A stretch of DNA of 64,000 bases, from assembly GCF_054482595.1 (NCBI RefSeq), contig NZ_JBTHVH010000004.1; one strand, 5' to 3'. The position numbers and the translations under genes are program-made. The notes beneath the pieces are model-generated. The model saw only the letters and a program-made list of their open reading frames with translations, was not told the DNA's origin and did not search any database. Positions 12,396 to 49,808 of this stretch are shown here, in pieces. The first letter of the stretch is position 1. Every line of letters starts with the position of its first letter. This DNA comes from a plasmid.

Positions 12396-13169
12396 TTAAT
12401 TTTCTCCAAAAATTCGCTGTGAAATGGCATCTGCAAACTGACTCTGACGCGGGATGCCAAACCAGCTGCACAGTTTCATAAAACGATGATCGCTCAGGCT
12501 GTCGCCCAGGCCAATTACGGGGAAGACTCCGCGTTCAGCCCGAAGTTTTTCAAGCAGCCATCTGACGGCCAGCCCTTTCTCAACCGGGGTGGGAAGCCAG
12601 GCCACGTTATTACTGTTGCGGTGGATGTAGAAGCCCTCGGTCGGAAACACCGTTTCTATCTCATCTGCAATGGCATTGAGCTCGTCAAGGCGGGTGCTGT
12701 CGCGGTGCTTCATCACCATATAAACCGCCGTTTCACCGTATTCGAAGTTCAGCCTTGCCCAGGCATTGATCCCTTTTGCGTCCATCATTTCAGTGATCAG
12801 ACGCTGCATCGATGTCAGCTTTTCCTGGTAGGGAGCCAGCTGGCCAAGCATATGGGCCTTCCACTCCTCGTCGGGTTTGCCTTCAGGCGTGAGAATGACG
12901 GCCCCGTGCGTGGTGATTGCCCAGGAGTGGAAAGGGATCCGGACGCGGCTGATTTCTTCAGTTCCCCGGGCGGTAACAGGTATGAGTTCAGCCTGCTCCA
13001 GGAGCCAGTCCACCAACATGGACTGTTCTTCCGTCATAAAGCTTCGTGGATTCAGGGTGCGATCAACGGCACCGGTACGGAATGGCTCCAGGGCCAGCTC
13101 GTCCACCATTTTACGACGGGTCTGAAAGAGCGTGTCGTCAAGGTCGCTCAGAACAACGGGTTTATTCAT
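12396..13169 (-). CDS. HAD-superfamily hydrolase (phosphatase)
   Basis: HAD motif I 'VLSDLDDTLF' directly after the start 'MNKPVV' (ATG at 13169). The 112-codon N-extension in the track ORF is rejected because it overlaps the upstream PRTase gene. Confidence 0.75.
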   Translation of the reverse strand: MNKPVVLSDLDDTLFQTRRKMVDELALEPFRTGAVDRTLNPRSFMTEEQSMLVDWLLEQAELIPVTARGTEEISRVRIPFHSWAITTHGAVILTPEGKPDEEWKAHMLGQLAPYQEKLTSMQRLITEMMDAKGINAWARLNFEYGETAVYMVMKHRDSTRLDELNAIADEIETVFPTEGFYIHRNSNNVAWLPTPVEKGLAVRWLLEKLRAERGVFPVIGLGDSLSDHRFMKLCSWFGIPRQSQFADAISQRIFGEN

Positions 13170-27461: not shown

Positions 27462-28281
27462 GGCACTGTTGCAAAGTTAGCGATGAGGCAGCCTTTTGTC
27501 TTATTCAAAGGCCTTACATTTCAAAAACTCTGCTTACCAGGCGCATTTCGCCCAGGGGATCACCATAATAAAATGCTGAGGCCTGGCCTTTGCGTAGTGC
27601 ACGCATCACCTCAATACCTTTGATGGTGGCGTAAGCCGTCTTCATGGATTTAAATCCCAGCGTGGCGCCGATTATCCGTTTCAGTTTGCCATGATCGCAT
27701 TCAATCACGTTGTTCCGGTACTTAATCTGTCGGTGTTCAACGTCAGACGGGCACCGGCCTTCGCGTTTGAGCAGAGCAAGCGCGCGACCATAGGCGGGCG
27801 CTTTATCCGTGTTGATGAATCGCGGGATCTGCCACTTCTTCACGTTGTTGAGGATTTTACCCAGAAACCGGTATGCAGCTTTGCTGTTACGACGGGAGGA
27901 GAGATAAAAATCGACAGTGCGGCCCCGGCTGTCGACGGCCCGGTACAGATACGCCCAGCGGCCATTGACCTTCACGTAGGTTTCATCCATGTGCCACGGG
28001 CAAAGATCGGAAGGGTTACGCCAGTACCAGCGCAGCCGTTTTTCCATTTCAGGCGCATAACGCTGAACCCAGCGGTAAATCGTGGAGTGATCGACATTCA
28101 CTCCGCGTTCAGCCAGCATCTCCTGCAGCTCACGGTAACTGATGCCGTATTTGCAGTACCAGCGTACGGCCCACAGAATGATGTCACGCTGAAAATGCCG
28201 GCCTTTGAATGGGTTCATGTGCAGCTCCATCAGCAAAAGGGGATGATAAGTTTATCACCACCGACTATTTGCAACAGTGCC
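27462..28281 (-). mobile_element. IS26 copy 1 (820 bp)
   Basis: 14-bp terminal inverted repeats GGCACTGTTGCAAA at both ends; internal transposase identical in all five copies; no target-site duplication. Confidence 0.95.
27514..28218 (-). CDS. tnpA: IS26 transposase (234 aa)
   Basis: 'MNPFKGRHFQRDIILWAVRWYCKYGISYRELQEM...'; the track ORF includes a 6-codon upstream extension. Confidence 0.95.
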   Translation of the reverse strand: MNPFKGRHFQRDIILWAVRWYCKYGISYRELQEMLAERGVNVDHSTIYRWVQRYAPEMEKRLRWYWRNPSDLCPWHMDETYVKVNGRWAYLYRAVDSRGRTVDFYLSSRRNSKAAYRFLGKILNNVKKWQIPRFINTDKAPAYGRALALLKREGRCPSDVEHRQIKYRNNVIECDHGKLKRIIGATLGFKSMKTAYATIKGIEVMRALRKGQASAFYYGDPLGEMRLVSRVFEM

Positions 28282-28304
28282 GTTGATCGTGCTATGATCG
28301 ACTG

Positions 28305-29108
28305 ATGTCATCAGCGGTGGAGTGCAATGTCGTGCAATACGAATGGCGAAAAGCCGAGCTCATCGGTCAGCTTCTCAACCTTGGGGTTACCCCCGGCGGT
28401 GTGCTGCTGGTCCACAGCTCCTTCCGTAGCGTCCGGCCCCTCGAAGATGGGCCACTTGGACTGATCGAGGCCCTGCGTGCTGCGCTGGGTCCGGGAGGGA
28501 CGCTCGTCATGCCCTCGTGGTCAGGTCTGGACGACGAGCCGTTCGATCCTGCCACGTCGCCCGTTACACCGGACCTTGGAGTTGTCTCTGACACATTCTG
28601 GCGCCTGCCAAATGTAAAGCGCAGCGCCCATCCATTTGCCTTTGCGGCAGCGGGGCCACAGGCAGAGCAGATCATCTCTGATCCATTGCCCCTGCCACCT
28701 CACTCGCCTGCAAGCCCGGTCGCCCGTGTCCATGAACTCGATGGGCAGGTACTTCTCCTCGGCGTGGGACACGATGCCAACACGACGCTGCATCTTGCCG
28801 AGTTGATGGCAAAGGTTCCCTATGGGGTGCCGAGACACTGCACCATTCTTCAGGATGGCAAGTTGGTACGCGTCGATTATCTCGAGAATGACCACTGCTG
28901 TGAGCGCTTTGCCTTGGCGGACAGGTGGCTCAAGGAGAAGAGCCTTCAGAAGGAAGGTCCAGTCGGTCATGCCTTTGCTCGGTTGATCCGCTCCCGCGAC
29001 ATTGTGGCGACAGCCCTGGGTCAACTGGGCCGAGATCCGTTGATCTTCCTGCATCCGCCAGAGGCGGGATGCGAAGAATGCGATGCCGCTCGCCAGTCGA
29101 TTGGCTGA
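28305..29108 (+). CDS. aac(3)-IV: Aminoglycoside 3-N-acetyltransferase AAC(3)-IV (apramycin/gentamicin resistance)
   Basis: Translation matches the recalled AAC(3)-IV sequence ('YEWRKAELIGQLLNLGVTPGGVLLVHSSFRSV...'); starts 23 bp after the IS26 end. Confidence 0.85.
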   Translation: MSSAVECNVVQYEWRKAELIGQLLNLGVTPGGVLLVHSSFRSVRPLEDGPLGLIEALRAALGPGGTLVMPSWSGLDDEPFDPATSPVTPDLGVVSDTFWRLPNVKRSAHPFAFAAAGPQAEQIISDPLPLPPHSPASPVARVHELDGQVLLLGVGHDANTTLHLAELMAKVPYGVPRHCTILQDGKLVRVDYLENDHCCERFALADRWLKEKSLQKEGPVGHAFARLIRSRDIVATALGQLGRDPLIFLHPPEAGCEECDAARQSIG

Positions 29109-29336
29109 GCTCATGAGCGGAGAACGAGATGACGTTGGAGGGGCAAGGTCGCGCTGATTGCTGGGGCAACACGTGGAGCGGATCGGGGATTGTCTTTCTT
29201 CAGCTCGCTGATGATATGCTGACGCTCAATGCCGTTTGGCCTCCGACTAACGAAAATCCCGCATTTGGACGGCTGATCCGATTGGCACGGCGGACGGCGA
29301 ATGGCGGAGCAGACGCTCGTCCGGGGGCAATGAGAT

Positions 29337-30362
29337 ATGAAAAAGCCTGAACTCACCGCGACGTCTGTCGAGAAGTTTCTGATCGAAAAGTTCGACAGCG
29401 TCTCCGACCTGATGCAGCTCTCGGAGGGCGAAGAATCTCGTGCTTTCAGCTTCGATGTAGGAGGGCGTGGATATGTCCTGCGGGTAAATAGCTGCGCCGA
29501 TGGTTTCTACAAAGATCGTTATGTTTATCGGCACTTTGCATCGGCCGCGCTCCCGATTCCGGAAGTGCTTGACATTGGGGAATTCAGCGAGAGCCTGACC
29601 TATTGCATCTCCCGCCGTGCACAGGGTGTCACGTTGCAAGACCTGCCTGAAACCGAACTGCCCGCTGTTCTGCAGCCGGTCGCGGAGGCCATGGATGCGA
29701 TCGCTGCGGCCGATCTTAGCCAGACGAGCGGGTTCGGCCCATTCGGACCGCAAGGAATCGGTCAATACACTACATGGCGTGATTTCATATGCGCGATTGC
29801 TGATCCCCATGTGTATCACTGGCAAACTGTGATGGACGACACCGTCAGTGCGTCCGTCGCGCAGGCTCTCGATGAGCTGATGCTTTGGGCCGAGGACTGC
29901 CCCGAAGTCCGGCACCTCGTGCACGCGGATTTCGGCTCCAACAATGTCCTGACGGACAATGGCCGCATAACAGCGGTCATTGACTGGAGCGAGGCGATGT
30001 TCGGGGATTCCCAATACGAGGTCGCCAACATCTTCTTCTGGAGGCCGTGGTTGGCTTGTATGGAGCAGCAGACGCGCTACTTCGAGCGGAGGCATCCGGA
30101 GCTTGCAGGATCGCCGCGGCTCCGGGCGTATATGCTCCGCATTGGTCTTGACCAACTCTATCAGAGCTTGGTTGACGGCAATTTCGATGATGCAGCTTGG
30201 GCGCAGGGTCGATGCGACGCAATCGTCCGATCCGGAGCCGGGACTGTCGGGCGTACACAAATCGCCCGCAGAAGCGCGGCCGTCTGGACCGATGGCTGTG
30301 TAGAAGTACTCGCCGATAGTGGAAACCGACGCCCCAGCACTCGTCCGAGGGCAAAGGAATAG
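29337..30362 (+). CDS. hph: Hygromycin B phosphotransferase APH(4)-Ia
   Basis: 'MKKPELTATSVEKFLIEKFDSVSDLMQLSEGEESRAFSFDVGGRGYVLRVN...' matches recalled Hph. Confidence 0.9.
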   Translation: MKKPELTATSVEKFLIEKFDSVSDLMQLSEGEESRAFSFDVGGRGYVLRVNSCADGFYKDRYVYRHFASAALPIPEVLDIGEFSESLTYCISRRAQGVTLQDLPETELPAVLQPVAEAMDAIAAADLSQTSGFGPFGPQGIGQYTTWRDFICAIADPHVYHWQTVMDDTVSASVAQALDELMLWAEDCPEVRHLVHADFGSNNVLTDNGRITAVIDWSEAMFGDSQYEVANIFFWRPWLACMEQQTRYFERRHPELAGSPRLRAYMLRIGLDQLYQSLVDGNFDDAAWAQGRCDAIVRSGAGTVGRTQIARRSAAVWTDGCVEVLADSGNRRPSTRPRAKE

Positions 30363-30367
30363 AGTAG

Positions 30368-30729
30368 ATGCCGACCGAACAAGAGCTGATTTCGAGAACG
30401 CCTCAGCCAGCAACTCGCGCGAGCCTAGCAAGGCAAATGCGAGAGAACGGCCTTACGCTTGGTGGCACAGTTCTCGTCCACAGTTCGCTAAGCTCGCTCG
30501 GCTGGGTCGCGGGAGGGCCGGTCGCAGTGATTCAGGCCCTTCTGGATTGTGTTGGTCCCCAGGGCACGATTGTCATGCCCACGCACTCGGGTGATCTGAC
30601 TGATCCCGCAGATTGGAGATCGCCGCCCGTGCCTGCCGATTGGGTGCAGATCTTGCGCAACGAGATGCCGGCATACGATCCGCAAACCACACCAACTCGG
30701 AACATGGGTGCAGTGGCTGAATTGTTCCG
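30368..30729 (+). pseudogene. 3'-truncated AAC(3)-family acetyltransferase gene
   Basis: First 120 codons resemble the AAC(3) N-terminus ('GGTVLVHSSLSSLG...GTIVMPTHSGDLTDP'); the frame is cut by the IS6-family element at about 30730. Confidence 0.5.
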
Positions 30730-31619
30730 GGCGTGTCGCAAACACTTTTGGAGGCAGCTATCACCCAGCCAAGGCCGGTATTTTCATGCTTTGTTAACCT
30801 TTTGCAGTCCGAAGAGGCGCGCAAGCAAATCATTCTGGTCATTGACGGTCCAGCCGCCTGAAAAGCCAAAGCCCTTCCGCAGCCACAGCATCGCCTCGAA
30901 ACCCGCGATGGTTCGCCGCGCCGTGTTAAAGGATTGGAAACCGCCGATCTTCGGCATGTTCTTCTTCACCCGGAAATGGTCGCTCTCAATCCCCTGCTGG
31001 AGATGTTTGGTCACATAATGCACGGGATCGGGATGGAGAAGCCCATCATCAACCGACGTTTTGATCGTTGACGGGAAGGTGTTGGCCCCGTCCGTCCCAA
31101 TCCTGTTCGGCGACAACAAGGGTTCATCTTTAAGCATCTTTCGGAAGAACCGCTTGGCAGCGTCGAGATCGCGCTTAGCGGTCAGCAGGAAATCCACCGG
31201 ATTGCCATGCTTATCGATGGCTCGGTACAGATAGCGCCATTTGCCGCGGATCTTGACATAGGTCTCATCAATCCGGACCGAGCCGCAATGGGGTCGACGA
31301 AACTGCCGCAGCCGTTTCTCGATGACAGGTGCATAAGCCAATACCCAGCGGTTGATCGTGCTATGATCGACCTCGAAGCCCCGCTCGCGAAACATCTCTT
31401 CCAAGTCACGATAGCTGAGCGGGTAGCGCAAGTACCAGGCAACCGCCTGTACAATCAGCCAGGCCTCGAAATGCCTGCCCTTGAAATCATCCTTCGACTG
31501 GCGCTTCAGCTTTTCGGCAATGGTATTCAAAATCATCGGCTCGCTCCGCAATATCAGGAGCGGCAACTTCTCTCCCCATGGTCAACATCGAGTTAACCTG
31601 AAGAATTTGCGACAAGGCC
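30730..31619 (-). mobile_element. IS6-family insertion sequence, distinct from IS26 (about 890 bp)
   Basis: Imperfect terminal repeats GGCGTGTCGCAAA (left) and GGCCTTGTCGCAAA (right, reverse complement) flanking a 260-aa IS6-type transposase; exact IS name not determined. Confidence 0.7.
30784..31566 (-). CDS. IS6-family transposase (260 aa)
   Basis: Same domain layout as IS26 Tnp ('FKGRHFEAWLIVQAVAWYLRYPLSYRDLEEM...') but divergent in sequence. Confidence 0.8.
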   Translation of the reverse strand: MPLLILRSEPMILNTIAEKLKRQSKDDFKGRHFEAWLIVQAVAWYLRYPLSYRDLEEMFRERGFEVDHSTINRWVLAYAPVIEKRLRQFRRPHCGSVRIDETYVKIRGKWRYLYRAIDKHGNPVDFLLTAKRDLDAAKRFFRKMLKDEPLLSPNRIGTDGANTFPSTIKTSVDDGLLHPDPVHYVTKHLQQGIESDHFRVKKNMPKIGGFQSFNTARRTIAGFEAMLWLRKGFGFSGGWTVNDQNDLLARLFGLQKVNKA

Positions 31620-33121
31620 ATGCGTTCCGCTCCGGAGATGTCTGGCTTACTAGGTCCCGGCGCTATGGCGATCTGAAACACGCACTCGTTCCGGCACAAT
31701 CCATCGCGGAAGGCGGTCGTCTCGCTGTGCCATTGCGGCCGGAGGAATGGCTGGCAGACCGGCAAGCTCGCCTCGACATGCGGTTGCGCGAGCTTGGCCG
31801 TGCCGCTCGCGCAGGCACGATCCCGGGCGGGTCGATTGAAAACGGCGTTCTGCATATCGAGAAACTCGAAGCCGCCGCGCCGACAGGCGCCGAAGATCTG
31901 GTGCTCGATCTCTACAAGCAGATCCCGCCCACGCGCATCACCGATCTCCTGCTGGAGGTGGATGCGGCGACCGGCTTCACCGAAGCGTTCACCCATCTGC
32001 GCACAGGAGCACCCTGCGCTGACCGGATCGGGCTAATGAACGTTATCTTGGCGGAAGGGATCAACCTCGGCTTGCGCAAAATGGCGGATGCGACAAACAC
32101 CCACACCTTCTGGGAATTGATCCGCATTGGACGGTGGCATGTCGAGGGCGAAGCCTATGACCGGGCGCTGGCCATGGTGGTCGAGGCACAGGCAGCGTTA
32201 CCCATGGCCCGGTTCTGGGGCATGGGCACGTCGGCTTCGAGCGACGGACAGTTCTTCGTCGCTACAGAGCAAGGTGAGGCCATGAACCTGGTCAACGCGA
32301 AATATGGCAATACCCCGGGCCTGAAAGCCTATAGCCACGTCTCCGACCAATATGCGCCGTTCGCAACCCAGGTGATTCCTGCAACGGCAAGCGAAGCGCC
32401 TTACATCCTCGATGGCCTGCTGATGAACGATGCTGGACGCCATATCCGCGAGCAGTTCACCGACACGGGCGGCTTCACCGATCACGTCTTTGCCGCATGT
32501 GCCATTCTCGGCTACCGGTTCGCTCCGCGCATCCGCGACCTGCCATCCAAACGGCTCTACGCGTTCAATCCGTCGGCCGCCCCGGCGCACCTGCGAGCGT
32601 TGATCGGCGGAAAGGTCAACCAAGCCATGATCGAGCGCAATTGGCCCGACATCCTGCGCATCGCCGCCACCATTGCTGCCGGGACCGTCGCGCCAAGCCA
32701 GATTCTGCGGAAACTCGCCTCCTATCCGCGGCAGAACGAGCTCGCGACAGCCCTGCGGGAAGTCGGTCGCGTCGAGCGCACCCTGTTCATGATCGACTGG
32801 ATTCTGGATGCCGAACTCCAACGGCGTGCCCAGATCGGGCTCAACAAAGGCGAAGCTCATCATGCGCTGAAGCGGGCAATCAGCTTCCACCGCCGCGGTG
32901 AAATCCGCGACCGTTCCGCCGAAGGCCAGCATTACCGCATCGCCGGCATGAATCTGCTCGCCGCCATCATCATCTTCTGGAACACCATGAAGCTCGGCGA
33001 GGTCGTTGCAAACCAGAAACGCGATGGAAAGCTGCTATCGCCCGATCTCTTGGCCCATGTTTCGCCGCTCGGATGGGAACACATCAATCTCACCGGAGAA
33101 TATCGCTGGCCAAAGCCTTAG
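31620..33121 (+). pseudogene. tnpA: 5'-truncated Tn3-family transposase gene (Tn5393-type tnpA, C-terminal about 500 codons)
   Basis: Homologous by eye to the C-terminal half of the 995-aa TnpA at 50492..53479 ('...SPLGWEHINLTGEYRW'); the track ORF start lies inside the IS6 element so the 5' end is missing. Confidence 0.7.
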
Positions 33122-33153
33122 CGTAGGATTCCGCCCCCTCCCGCAAACGACCC
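33073..33153. repeat. Tn5393-type 81-bp terminal inverted repeat (tnpA end)
   Basis: Reverse complement reads 'GGGGTCGTTTGCGGGAGGGGGCGGAATCCTACGCTAAGGCTTTGGCCAGCGATATTCTCCGG...', matching the recalled Tn5393 IR; overlaps the tnpA 3' end. Confidence 0.6.
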
Positions 33154-33154
33154 C

Positions 33155-34066
33155 GTGATGACCCTGCAGGCATCCCCTGAGACCCGGTTAATGCGCGCCG
33201 AGGTGCAGCGGCATTATCCGCACATCTGGCAGGAGCTGGAGGGGCTGGCGCAGGGACTGGAGGCCACTGTTGATCAGGTCTTTGCCTGGAACTGCCGTGG
33301 CGATCTGGTGCGCTCAACGTCGGATGGCTGTACGACGGTGGCCGGGGTAAACGCCGCAGGCGAGCGGATTATCGCGCATAATGAAGACGGTTTTCCTCAG
33401 TTACGGGATGAATGCTTGCTGGCTACCATTACTCCGAGTCGCGGTCTGAGCTTTACGAGTTTTGCCTATCCGGGGTCGATTTGCGGCCACACCTTTGCGG
33501 TAAATGAAAAAGGTATCGTTAACACGGTGAATAACATCCGTGCAGTGTATCGTCCGCAGGGATTACCGCGTCAGATCCTGGCTCGCGCCTCGCTGAATGC
33601 GAACACCCTCGACGAGGCCATCACTATACTTACCGGCCAGCCGCGATCCGGGGCGTTTCACCATACGCTCGGGCAGCTGGGCGATGCGCGGCTGTTCAGC
33701 GTTGAGGCCACCGGTCAAGGCTGTTCCGTTCTACCCCTGACGACGGTAACCGGGCATGCCAACCATCTGGTGCATGCGGCACTGGCTGGCGTTGAGCAGA
33801 TCGTTACCGACAGTTCAGCGTCGCGGCAGTTACGCCTCGTGCAGTGGCGGGAAACGCAACCTCCGTTTGACGCCGCGGCGGCAAAAACCATTCTCTCAGA
33901 TACCCATGACGCAGAACTGCCAATTTACCGGCTGGCTGCCGACGATCCGGATGAGGAGAACACCCTCGCCACGGCAGTTTTCACCCTCGATGCCAACCAC
34001 GTCAGGTGGCAAATTTTCGACATTAACCGCGACGATGCTAAATTTCATGGAGAAGTGCGTGGGTGA
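33155..34066 (+). CDS. Hypothetical Ntn-hydrolase / peptidase C45-like protein (303 aa)
   Basis: ORF with 'DGCTT' candidate nucleophile context; family assignment is tentative. Confidence 0.45.
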   Translation: MMTLQASPETRLMRAEVQRHYPHIWQELEGLAQGLEATVDQVFAWNCRGDLVRSTSDGCTTVAGVNAAGERIIAHNEDGFPQLRDECLLATITPSRGLSFTSFAYPGSICGHTFAVNEKGIVNTVNNIRAVYRPQGLPRQILARASLNANTLDEAITILTGQPRSGAFHHTLGQLGDARLFSVEATGQGCSVLPLTTVTGHANHLVHAALAGVEQIVTDSSASRQLRLVQWRETQPPFDAAAAKTILSDTHDAELPIYRLAADDPDEENTLATAVFTLDANHVRWQIFDINRDDAKFHGEVRG

Positions 34067-48988: not shown

Positions 48989-49808
48989 GGCACTGTTGCA
49001 AATAGTCGGTGGTGATAAACTTATCATCCCCTTTTGCTGATGGAGCTGCACATGAACCCATTCAAAGGCCGGCATTTTCAGCGTGACATCATTCTGTGGG
49101 CCGTACGCTGGTACTGCAAATACGGCATCAGTTACCGTGAGCTGCAGGAGATGCTGGCTGAACGCGGAGTGAATGTCGATCACTCCACGATTTACCGCTG
49201 GGTTCAGCGTTATGCGCCTGAAATGGAAAAACGGCTGCGCTGGTACTGGCGTAACCCTTCCGATCTTTGCCCGTGGCACATGGATGAAACCTACGTGAAG
49301 GTCAATGGCCGCTGGGCGTATCTGTACCGGGCCGTCGACAGCCGGGGCCGCACTGTCGATTTTTATCTCTCCTCCCGTCGTAACAGCAAAGCTGCATACC
49401 GGTTTCTGGGTAAAATCCTCAACAACGTGAAGAAGTGGCAGATCCCGCGATTCATCAACACGGATAAAGCGCCCGCCTATGGTCGCGCGCTTGCTCTGCT
49501 CAAACGCGAAGGCCGGTGCCCGTCTGACGTTGAACACCGACAGATTAAGTACCGGAACAACGTGATTGAATGCGATCATGGCAAACTGAAACGGATAATC
49601 GGCGCCACGCTGGGATTTAAATCCATGAAGACGGCTTACGCCACCATCAAAGGTATTGAGGTGATGCGTGCACTACGCAAAGGCCAGGCCTCAGCATTTT
49701 ATTATGGTGATCCCCTGGGCGAAATGCGCCTGGTAAGCAGAGTTTTTGAAATGTAAGGCCTTTGAATAAGACAAAAGGCTGCCTCATCGCTAACTTTGCA
49801 ACAGTGCC
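48989..49808 (+). mobile_element. IS26 copy 5, flanked by an 8-bp target-site duplication CTTCTGGT
   Basis: Identical 8-mer at 48981..48988 and 49809..49816 directly abutting the inverted repeats; the only IS26 copy with a duplication. Confidence 0.95.
49052..49756 (+). CDS. tnpA: IS26 transposase
   Basis: Identical to the other copies. Confidence 0.95.
   Translation: MNPFKGRHFQRDIILWAVRWYCKYGISYRELQEMLAERGVNVDHSTIYRWVQRYAPEMEKRLRWYWRNPSDLCPWHMDETYVKVNGRWAYLYRAVDSRGRTVDFYLSSRRNSKAAYRFLGKILNNVKKWQIPRFINTDKAPAYGRALALLKREGRCPSDVEHRQIKYRNNVIECDHGKLKRIIGATLGFKSMKTAYATIKGIEVMRALRKGQASAFYYGDPLGEMRLVSRVFEM

What the first reader, a model, noticed from the sequence alone, without database searches (positions are those of the whole stretch)
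30730..31619. Second IS6-family element with imperfect ends, distinct from IS26
A 260-aa IS6-type transposase is flanked by related but non-identical 13-14 bp ends (GGCGTGTCGCAAA / GGCCTTGTCGCAAA), with no target-site duplication seen. It truncates both the AAC(3)-like gene and the Tn5393-type tnpA.
Basis: seen in the sequence. Interest (0 to 1): 0.3.

Follow-up and report, generated by a model that had tools for sequence, protein, structure and literature searches.

The report
ISEc59, a known IS6-family insertion sequence
This is ISEc59, an already catalogued 891-bp jumping gene that sits beside the apramycin and hygromycin resistance genes in hundreds of plasmids, so the finding is correct but ordinary.

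Summary
The element runs 30729..31619 (891 bp), not 30730..31619. It has one minus-strand gene for an IS6-family DDE transposase, most likely 250 aa from the ATG at 31536; 260 aa is the maximal TTG ORF. The 14-bp ends match 12/14, and 17/23 over 23 bp. Length and TIR score equal the ISfinder values for ISEc59 tabulated by Harmer & Hall 2019 (clade VI). The 2,447 bp between IS26 and this element equals a published description.

There is no target-site duplication. The left flank is an AAC(3)-family gene lacking its C-terminus. The right flank is Tn5393 tnpA lacking its first 1,384 nt.

The identical element occurs in 659 PLSDB plasmids. Its left junction is conserved in 652 records and its right junction in 647. 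The whole 5.2-kb unit is in 173 complete E. coli genomes. It therefore looks like a frozen passenger of an IS26-bounded resistance unit.

Both ends are fixed by 99.8-99.9% identical copies in other contexts. All close relatives are alphaproteobacterial.

Side observations: none of 43 other full-length copies has a TSD, although their flanks show a target preference 8-11 bp out.

Verdict: already known, low interest.

The parts
30729..31619 (-). ISEc59, complete 891-bp IS6/IS26-family (clade VI) insertion sequence
   Evidence: It is 100% identical over 891 bp in 659 PLSDB plasmids. Homology to independent copies L092, L087 and L088 begins at 30729 and ends at 31619. Length 891 and TIR 17/23 equal the ISfinder values for ISEc59. 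The 2,447-bp IS26-ISEc59 interval matches PMC6906374.
31606..31619 (-). Left terminal inverted repeat (IRL, upstream of tnp), GGCCTTGTCGCAAA; extended similarity reaches 31597
   Evidence: The same end abuts 11 different flanks in metagenome contigs and in an A. tumefaciens plasmid.
30729..30742 (+). Right terminal inverted repeat (IRR, downstream of tnp), GGGCGTGTCGCAAA; extended similarity reaches 30751
   Evidence: The same end abuts 4 other flanks in L092, L087 (two copies) and L088. It aligns with the IRR of the A. rubi relative.
30784..31536 (-). tnp, a DDE transposase of 250 aa plus stop (the maximal ORF from TTG 31566 gives 260 aa)
   Evidence: Pfam PF13610 at 3e-54. NCBIfam NF033587 at 252 bits. 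Motifs present: F-x4-F at residue 18, D90-E-T, D149, E184 (34 residues between D149 and E184), ESDHFRVK. PGAP CDS WP_000602738.1.
30368..30728 (+). 5' fragment (120 codons) of an AAC(3)-family acetyltransferase gene, cut by the IRR end of ISEc59
   Evidence: Pfam Antibiotic_NAT profile positions 1-84 of 232 only. PGAP pseudogene 'missing C-terminus'. No intact counterpart above 69% identity in the protein database.
31620..33154 (+). Tn5393 remnant: 3' 1,502 nt of tnpA (to 33121) plus the terminal sequence to 33154, cut by the IRL end of ISEc59
   Evidence: 99.9% identity to intact Tn5393-type tnpA in L005 from nt 1385 of 2886 onward. Pfam DDE_Tnp_Tn3. PGAP pseudogene 'missing N-terminus'. No 5' part of Tn5393 is found elsewhere in the window.
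27462..28281 (.). IS26 copy that bounds the other side of the aac(3)-IVa/aph(4)-Ia segment
   Evidence: Perfect 14-bp IS26 TIRs spaced 820 bp apart. PGAP annotation of the identical unit.
28332..30362 (+). aac(3)-IVa (28332-29108) and aph(4)-Ia (29337-30362), the resistance genes carried between IS26 and ISEc59
   Evidence: ORFs. PGAP names in the identical E. coli record. Published unit IS26-aac(3)-IV-aph(4)-Ia-ISEc59.

Best explanation
The element at 30729..31619 is ISEc59. It is a complete 891-bp insertion sequence of the IS6/IS26 family, in the alphaproteobacteria-dominated clade VI of Harmer & Hall.

Shown: it encodes one intact DDE transposase with all family signature residues, and it is bounded by 14-bp imperfect terminal inverted repeats of the family type.

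Inferred from the family (IS26, IS257, IS1216): it moves by replicative 'copy-in' cointegrate formation. That route only leaves a TSD around a single copy if the cointegrate is later resolved.

In this window ISEc59 is a single copy at a junction between two unrelated truncated genes with no TSD. The junction therefore reflects at least one ISEc59-mediated rearrangement rather than a simple insertion. Candidates are cointegrate formation, adjacent deletion, or recombination between two copies; which one is inferred, not shown.

That junction arose once. It has since been inherited unchanged as part of the unit IS26-aac(3)-IVa-aph(4)-Ia-deltaAAC(3)-ISEc59-deltaTn5393. IS26 and conjugative plasmids now spread this unit among Enterobacterales, Proteus and Acinetobacter. 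In these hosts ISEc59 behaves as a passenger, with no sign of new insertions. Its natural hosts appear to be Hyphomicrobiales (Agrobacterium, Nitratireductor and relatives).
For: Family membership:
- Pfam DDE_Tnp_IS240 at 3e-54 and NCBIfam IS6 equivalog at 252 bits.
- DD(34)E spacing, E-DH---K, D-E-T and F-x4-F motifs are present, as defined in PMC6807381.
- Both TIRs have GG at positions 1-2, G at 7 and G at 10.

Identity as ISEc59:
- 891 bp and TIR 17/23 equal the ISfinder values.
- The ISfinder reference KX246266 is pHNAH67, an aac(3)-IV plasmid.
- The 2,447 bp between IS26 and ISEc59 is as published.
- Papers label this exact context ISEc59.
- The element is 100% identical in CP046044, which one of those papers cites.

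Ends:
- Three full copies at 99.8-99.9% identity and eight further right ends sit in different contexts and stop at exactly the same bases.
- Two 891-bp assembly contigs consist of a relative alone (L011, L042).

Frozen context:
- 659 plasmids carry the element at >=99% identity. The left junction is intact in 652 records and the right junction in 647.
- 173 complete E. coli genomes hold the whole 5.2-kb unit.

Rearrangement behaviour: in L087 the IS abuts a breakpoint relative to the collinear Nitratireductor plasmid.

Origin: the best 80 of 254 relatives in species-representative genomes are alphaproteobacterial, except two.
Against: - I could not align directly to the ISfinder entry or to KX246266, which is not in the collections. 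The name therefore rests on matching length, TIR score, context and published labels.
- Harmer & Hall list the ISEc59 transposase as 240 aa, whereas PGAP and the relatives give 250 aa.
- No transposition assay exists for ISEc59 or any clade VI member that I found, so the mechanism is inferred from other clades.
- No TSD was seen in this copy or in 43 other copies. The 8-bp duplication typical of the family is therefore unverified for this clade.
- The reciprocal junction expected from a cointegrate into Tn5393 is absent from PLSDB.
Confidence: 0.93

Rival explanations
1. The element is a truncated or chimeric IS whose real ends lie elsewhere, and the 12/14 inverted repeat is a chance match.
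For: Megablast hits to rhizobial relatives stop about 50 bp short of the left end (query positions 52-55). The two ends differ at 2 of 14 positions.
Against: - Global alignment with the A. rubi copy shows homologous TIRs at both ends. Only the non-coding spacer after the stop codon has diverged.
- Copies at 99.8-99.9% identity in three unrelated contexts align from exactly 30729 to 31619.
- 40 relatives of 883-892 bp carry GGGCYTGTCGCAAA at both ends.
- The motif occurs only twice in the window, against 0.15 expected.
Confidence: 0.02
2. It is a divergent isoform of IS26 or IS6100 rather than a separate IS.
For: It belongs to the same family, has the same 14-bp TIR architecture, and lies among five IS26 copies.
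Against: - It shares only 45% amino-acid identity with Tnp26 and no significant DNA similarity.
- It is 891 bp against 820 bp for IS26.
- ISfinder's isoform rule needs >95% nt identity or >98% aa similarity.
- It is placed in clade VI, not clade I.
Confidence: 0.01
3. The TSD-less junction was not made by ISEc59 itself. Instead it arose by RecA-dependent homologous recombination between two ISEc59 copies, one inserted in the AAC(3)-like gene and one in Tn5393 tnpA, each originally with its own TSD.
For: This is a standard route to hybrid flanks for any multicopy IS. Relatives are multicopy in their natural hosts, for example five copies on pRL7. No cross-copy TSD signature of cointegrates was found among 40 relatives.
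Against: - Neither parental insertion (TSD-flanked ISEc59 in an intact AAC(3)-like gene or in Tn5393) was found. The reciprocal Tn5393 junction is absent from PLSDB, and no intact AAC(3)-like gene exists in the protein database.
- 0 of 43 other copies has a TSD, so TSD-flanked parents seem rare in this clade.
- This rival concerns only how the junction formed, not what the element is.
Confidence: 0.25

Closest known systems
ISEc59 (ISfinder; reference KX246266, plasmid pHNAH67)
   Same: The length is 891 bp, the TIR is 17/23, and the TSD is not determined. It is an IS6 family clade VI element. It has the same neighbours (aph(4)-Ia/aac(3)-IV on one side, truncated Tn5393 on the other) and the same 2,447-bp distance to IS26.
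   Different: Nothing detectable. The only discrepancy is the tabulated transposase length (240 aa) against 250 aa here and in PGAP.
ISRle7 / ISRle6 / ISRle39A of Rhizobium (pRL7, NC_008382) and other clade VI elements (ISMno28, ISMex25)
   Same: They are 888-894 bp long with a 250-aa transposase, which is 90-95% identical in amino acids for the pRL7 copies. TIRs are GGGCYTGTCGCAAA. No TSD is recorded.
   Different: Nucleotide identity is only 80-86% for the pRL7 copies and at most 92% for the closest relative found. These are therefore separate ISs under the ISfinder rule. ISEc59 has C instead of G at IRL position 3.
IS26
   Same: It is in the same family, with a DDE transposase carrying the DD(34)E and E-DH---K motifs. 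It has 14-bp TIRs starting GG with G at position 7. It frequently lacks TSDs in resistance regions; only 1 of 5 IS26 copies in this window has one.
   Different: Amino-acid identity is 45%. IS26 is 820 bp and clade I, with perfect TIRs GGCACTGTTGCAAA. IS26 is demonstrably active in Enterobacterales, whereas ISEc59 shows one fixed context there.

Membership tests
IS6/IS26 family (sensu Harmer & Hall 2019, clades I-VI) | Single DDE transposase recognised by the family profiles | tested here: met
   Pfam PF13610 DDE_Tnp_IS240 at 3e-54. NCBIfam NF033587 at 252.5 bits against a cut-off of 125, covering the full profile 1-202.
IS6/IS26 family (sensu Harmer & Hall 2019, clades I-VI) | Catalytic signatures: D-E-T at the first D, 34 residues between the second D and E, E-DH---K motif | tested here: met
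   D90-E-T, D149, E184 and ESDHFRVK are present. Criteria are taken from PMC6807381 section 12.
IS6/IS26 family (sensu Harmer & Hall 2019, clades I-VI) | N-terminal F-x4-F/Y segment followed by an H-HTH DNA-binding domain | tested here: met
   FKGRHF lies at residues 18-23. Residues 16-75 align with Tnp26 residues 6-65 across the H-HTH region. The helices themselves were not modelled.
IS6/IS26 family (sensu Harmer & Hall 2019, clades I-VI) | 14-bp terminal inverted repeats close to GGTTCTGTTGCAAA, with GG at positions 1-2 and G at position 7 (G at 10 usual) | tested here: met
   The ends are GGGCGTGTCGCAAA and GGCCTTGTCGCAAA. Both have G1, G2, G7 and G10. Their differences are at positions 3 and 5.
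IS6/IS26 family (sensu Harmer & Hall 2019, clades I-VI) | 8-bp target-site duplication after simple insertion | tested here: inconclusive
   There is no TSD here (ATTGTTCC / ATGCGTTC). There is also none in 3 other ISEc59 copies or 40 relatives. ISfinder records 'nd' for every clade VI member and for most of the family. Absence is expected when a copy sits at a rearrangement junction. A flank preference 8-11 bp from the ends hints at an 8-bp stagger.
IS6/IS26 family (sensu Harmer & Hall 2019, clades I-VI) | Transposition exclusively through cointegrates (copy-in, and targeted conservative) | not testable with these tools
   This needs a mating-out or cointegrate assay. The only indirect support is that the IS copies sit at breakpoints.
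ISEc59 (specific IS, ISfinder isoform rule >95% nt identity) | Length, TIR score and genetic context equal to the reference entry | tested here: met
   891 bp and 17/23 (my count on 30729-30751 against the reverse complement of 31597-31619). The 2,447-bp spacer to IS26 matches. The element is 100% identical in plasmids whose published maps label it ISEc59, for example CP046044.
ISEc59 (specific IS, ISfinder isoform rule >95% nt identity) | Direct alignment to the ISfinder/KX246266 sequence | not testable with these tools
   KX246266 is not in the accessible collections and ISfinder is not available.
Clade VI of the IS6/IS26 family | Conserved ~14-aa N-terminal extension, ~250-aa transposase, ~890-bp IS, closest relatives in Alphaproteobacteria | tested here: met
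   The 250-aa protein has 15 residues N-terminal to where the alignment with Tnp26 begins. It is 77-98% identical in amino acids over residues 1-250 to elements from Rhizobiaceae, Phyllobacteriaceae, Methylobacterium and others, including the pRL7 copies. It is listed as clade VI.

The most novel reading that the evidence does not exclude
ISEc59 is an immigrant from Hyphomicrobiales (Agrobacterium/Nitratireductor-type plasmids). It belongs to a clade whose members essentially never end up as TSD-flanked simple insertions: 0 of 44 full-length copies have a TSD. Yet every end carries a target signature (A-G-R-S at -11 to -8) consistent with an 8-bp staggered attack.

This would mean that clade VI elements act almost only as replicon-fusing or rearranging agents. 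It would also mean that the apramycin/hygromycin unit was assembled in, or passed through, a soil, plant or marine alphaproteobacterium before IS26 captured it.
Probability: 0.3. Interest if true: 0.3.

Novelty: already known. Interest (0 to 1): 0.08.

Why it matters
For annotating this window it matters only as a correct label and correct coordinates. ISEc59 marks the right-hand limit of the widely disseminated IS26-aac(3)-IVa-aph(4)-Ia module, and it explains why the two adjacent genes are pseudogenes.

The broader points are modest. The IS is static in Enterobacterales, so it is a useful lineage marker for this resistance module. Its near-identical copies in Agrobacterium and Nitratireductor-type DNA point to an environmental alphaproteobacterial step in the module's history.

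Tried and rejected
- Fetching the ISfinder reference accession KX246266 failed because it is not in the collections. Identity was established indirectly instead.
- An exact 34-mer of the left end gave no metagenome hit. Environmental copies carry C instead of T at the base corresponding to 30748. The right-end 28-mer then worked.
- I searched for the reciprocal junction expected from an ISEc59 cointegrate into Tn5393 (upstream tnpA + ATGCGTTC + IRR). No PLSDB record covers it.
- I searched for an intact version of the truncated AAC(3)-like gene. Nothing above 69% identity turned up; all 100% hits are the same truncated fragment.
- I looked for TSDs of 1-12 bp, for 8-bp near-matches, and for cross-copy direct or inverted TSD pairs among 40 relatives. 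None were found.
- The promoter/terminator scan of the element gave nothing above shuffled expectation.
- I considered that megablast hits stopping at query position ~52 meant a false left end. This was rejected after global alignment and the independent copies.
- I did not examine the four ISEc59 matches reported in Acinetobacter schindleri plasmid CP094838.1 beyond the first, which lies in the usual unit.

Full report
**1. What is in the sequence**

Between 30729 and 31619 lies an 891-bp unit with one long minus-strand ORF (30784..31566, 260 aa from TTG).
- The product matches Pfam DDE_Tnp_IS240 (E 3e-54).
- It also matches the NCBIfam equivalog 'IS6 family transposase' over the full profile (252 bits against a cut-off of 125).
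- PGAP annotates the 250-aa form that starts at the ATG at 31536 (WP_000602738.1).
- That start is preceded by GGAG, and 80 relatives align over residues 1-250. I therefore take 250 aa as the real product and 260 aa as the maximal ORF.

The ends are GGGCGTGTCGCAAA (30729-30742) and the reverse complement of 31606-31619, GGCCTTGTCGCAAA. They match 12 of 14, and 17 of 23 if extended. They are the top inverted repeat in the region. They are also the only two matches to the degenerate motif in the 64-kb window, against 0.15 expected by chance.

**2. Where exactly it ends**

The finding starts one base too far in.
- A metagenome scan with the right-end 28-mer returned ten contigs.
- Three of them (L092, L087, L088) hold full copies at 99.8-99.9% identity in unrelated surroundings. 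Their homology to the window begins at exactly 30729 and ends at exactly 31619.
- Counting a 390-bp fragment at 99.7% identity in Agrobacterium tumefaciens pAtCFBP6624, the right end abuts 11 other flanks. The left end abuts 4 other flanks.
- A 92%-identical copy in A. rubi has homologous TIRs at the same positions.
- Forty relatives of 883-892 bp carry GGGCYTGTCGCAAA at both ends.
- Two assembly contigs of exactly 891 bp consist of such an IS alone (L011, L042).

**3. Its name**

Harmer & Hall's curated ISfinder table lists ISEc59 as 891 bp, TIR 17/23, TSD not determined, clade VI, reference KX246266 (PMC6807381).
- Both numbers equal what I measure.
- KX246266 is pHNAH67, an aac(3)-IV/aph(4)-Ia plasmid (PMC7083131).
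[quoted passage not shown] In the window, 28282..30728 is exactly 2,447 bp.
- Several papers draw the same order, IS26-aac(3)-IVa-aph(4)-Ia-ISEc59-deltaTn5393.
- I could not align to the reference itself, so the name rests on these concordant indirect tests.

**4. Family membership**

All sequence criteria of the IS6/IS26 family as set out in PMC6807381 are met.
- Protein: F-x4-F near the N-terminus, D-E-T at the first D, 34 residues between D149 and E184, and ESDHFRVK for the E-DH---K motif.
- TIRs: GG at positions 1-2, G at 7 and G at 10.
- Amino-acid identity to the Tnp26 encoded in the same window is 45% over 210 residues, and there is no significant DNA similarity. It is therefore a separate IS, not an IS26 isoform.

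**5. Flanks**

There is no TSD: ATTGTTCC on the left and ATGCGTTC on the right.
- *Left.* The flank is the first 120 codons of an AAC(3)-family gene. It covers Pfam profile positions 1-84 of 232 and is a PGAP pseudogene missing its C-terminus.
- *Right.* The flank is Tn5393-type tnpA from nt 1385 of 2886 to its end, plus the transposon terminus to 33154. It is 99.9% identical to an intact copy and is a PGAP pseudogene missing its N-terminus.
- The missing 5' part of Tn5393 is nowhere else in the window.

One insertion cannot truncate two unrelated genes. The junction therefore records an IS-associated rearrangement. I cannot tell whether it was a cointegrate, an adjacent deletion or IS-IS recombination. 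The reciprocal Tn5393 junction is absent from PLSDB, and no intact AAC(3)-like gene above 69% identity exists in the protein database.

**6. Distribution**

- The 891 bp occur at >=99% identity in 659 PLSDB plasmids, mostly Salmonella, Escherichia and Klebsiella.
- The left junction is intact in 652 records and the right junction in 647.
- The whole 5.2-kb unit is 100% identical in many records, and 173 complete E. coli genomes hold at least 80% of it.
- I saw no evidence of ISEc59 at new sites in these hosts. The module is bounded by IS26, which has five copies in the window, and it is IS26 that the literature credits with moving it.

**7. Origin**

- A scan of one genome per species found 254 relatives. 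The best 80 (77-98% aa identity) are all Alphaproteobacteria, chiefly Hyphomicrobiales, except one Pseudomonas putida and one Marinicella.
- Metagenome contig L087 carries two ISEc59 copies around a 10.4-kb segment. That segment is 99.98% identical to a Nitratireductor rhodophyticola plasmid, in which the IS is absent and the sequence continues differently.
- Together with the Agrobacterium fragment, this places genuine ISEc59 in Hyphomicrobiales.

**8. Side observation on TSDs**

- None of 40 full-length relatives with both flanks available has a TSD of any length >=4. The Hamming distances of their 8-bp flanks look random, and no cross-copy pairs exist.
- The three environmental ISEc59 copies also lack TSDs.
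- The method does detect the TSD CTTCTGGT around the IS26 at 48989-49808.
- Across 80 distinct end-flanks there is a clear bias 8-11 bp from the IS end: A in 40/80 at -11, G in 44/80 at -10, purine in 61/80 at -9, and C/G in 59/80 at -8.
- That is what an 8-bp staggered attack with a preferred outer context would leave at each end separately.
- It fits a clade that mostly makes cointegrates and intramolecular rearrangements. It is not proof, and ISfinder records 'nd' for all clade VI members anyway.

**9. Verdict**

The finding is accurate apart from a one-base shift and the protein length, and its interpretation is supported. The element is the catalogued ISEc59 in its usual, widely published context. 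Novelty: already known. Interest: low.

Noticed in passing
L087:1273-2163 and 12698-12776; L092:142-1032; L088:100-989; L003:2261-2650: Near-identical ISEc59 copies (99.7-99.9%) exist outside the resistance unit. They occur in metagenome contigs and as a 390-bp fragment in A. tumefaciens pAtCFBP6624. L087 shares 10.4 kb at 99.98% identity with a Nitratireductor rhodophyticola plasmid. All close relatives in species-representative genomes are alphaproteobacterial, so an IS named for E. coli is probably native to Hyphomicrobiales.
   Followed up: partly
L008-L081 (40 full-length relatives) and L087, L088, L092: No copy of ISEc59 or its clade VI relatives has a target-site duplication (0 of 43 outside the window). 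However, 80 distinct end-flanks show a significant base preference at -11 to -8 (A, G, purine, C/G). This is consistent with an 8-bp staggered target cut made separately at each end.
   Followed up: partly
window 30368-30728: The truncated AAC(3)-family gene downstream of aph(4)-Ia has no intact counterpart above 69% identity among 5.8 billion proteins. Every 100% hit is the same fragment fused to ISEc59 sequence. The source organism of the aac(3)-IVa/aph(4)-Ia/AAC(3)-like cluster (58-60% GC against 50% for the window) remains unidentified.
   Followed up: partly
window 48989-49808 (and IS26 at 27462, 38794, 41717, 45034): Of the five IS26 copies in the window, only the one at 48989-49808 is flanked by an 8-bp direct repeat (CTTCTGGT). 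The other four have unrelated flanks.
   Followed up: no
window 30724-30728 and 31624-31628: The pentamer GTTCC ends the left flank of ISEc59 and recurs 4 bp into the right flank (ATGCGTTCC). It is not positioned as a TSD and is probably coincidence.
   Followed up: no
window 30748: The copy in the resistance unit has T where the four environmental left ends (the three full copies and the second, partial copy in L087) have C (GGGCGTGTCGCAAACACTTT against ...CACTTC). This is why an exact left-end search of metagenomes returned nothing.
   Followed up: yes
window 33155-34066: Immediately beyond the Tn5393 terminus lies an ORF that PGAP names a C45 family autoproteolytic acyltransferase/hydrolase. 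In E. coli p1540-3 it is followed directly by IS26, whereas in this window the next IS26 is 4.7 kb further on.
   Followed up: no
PMC6807381 Table 3 against window 30784-31536: The published table gives the ISEc59 transposase as 240 aa. PGAP, the conserved ATG with its GGAG, and the clade VI entries of similar (886-894 bp) length give 250 aa (ISRle6 is listed at 256 aa), so the tabulated value looks like a start-codon or transcription discrepancy.
   Followed up: partly
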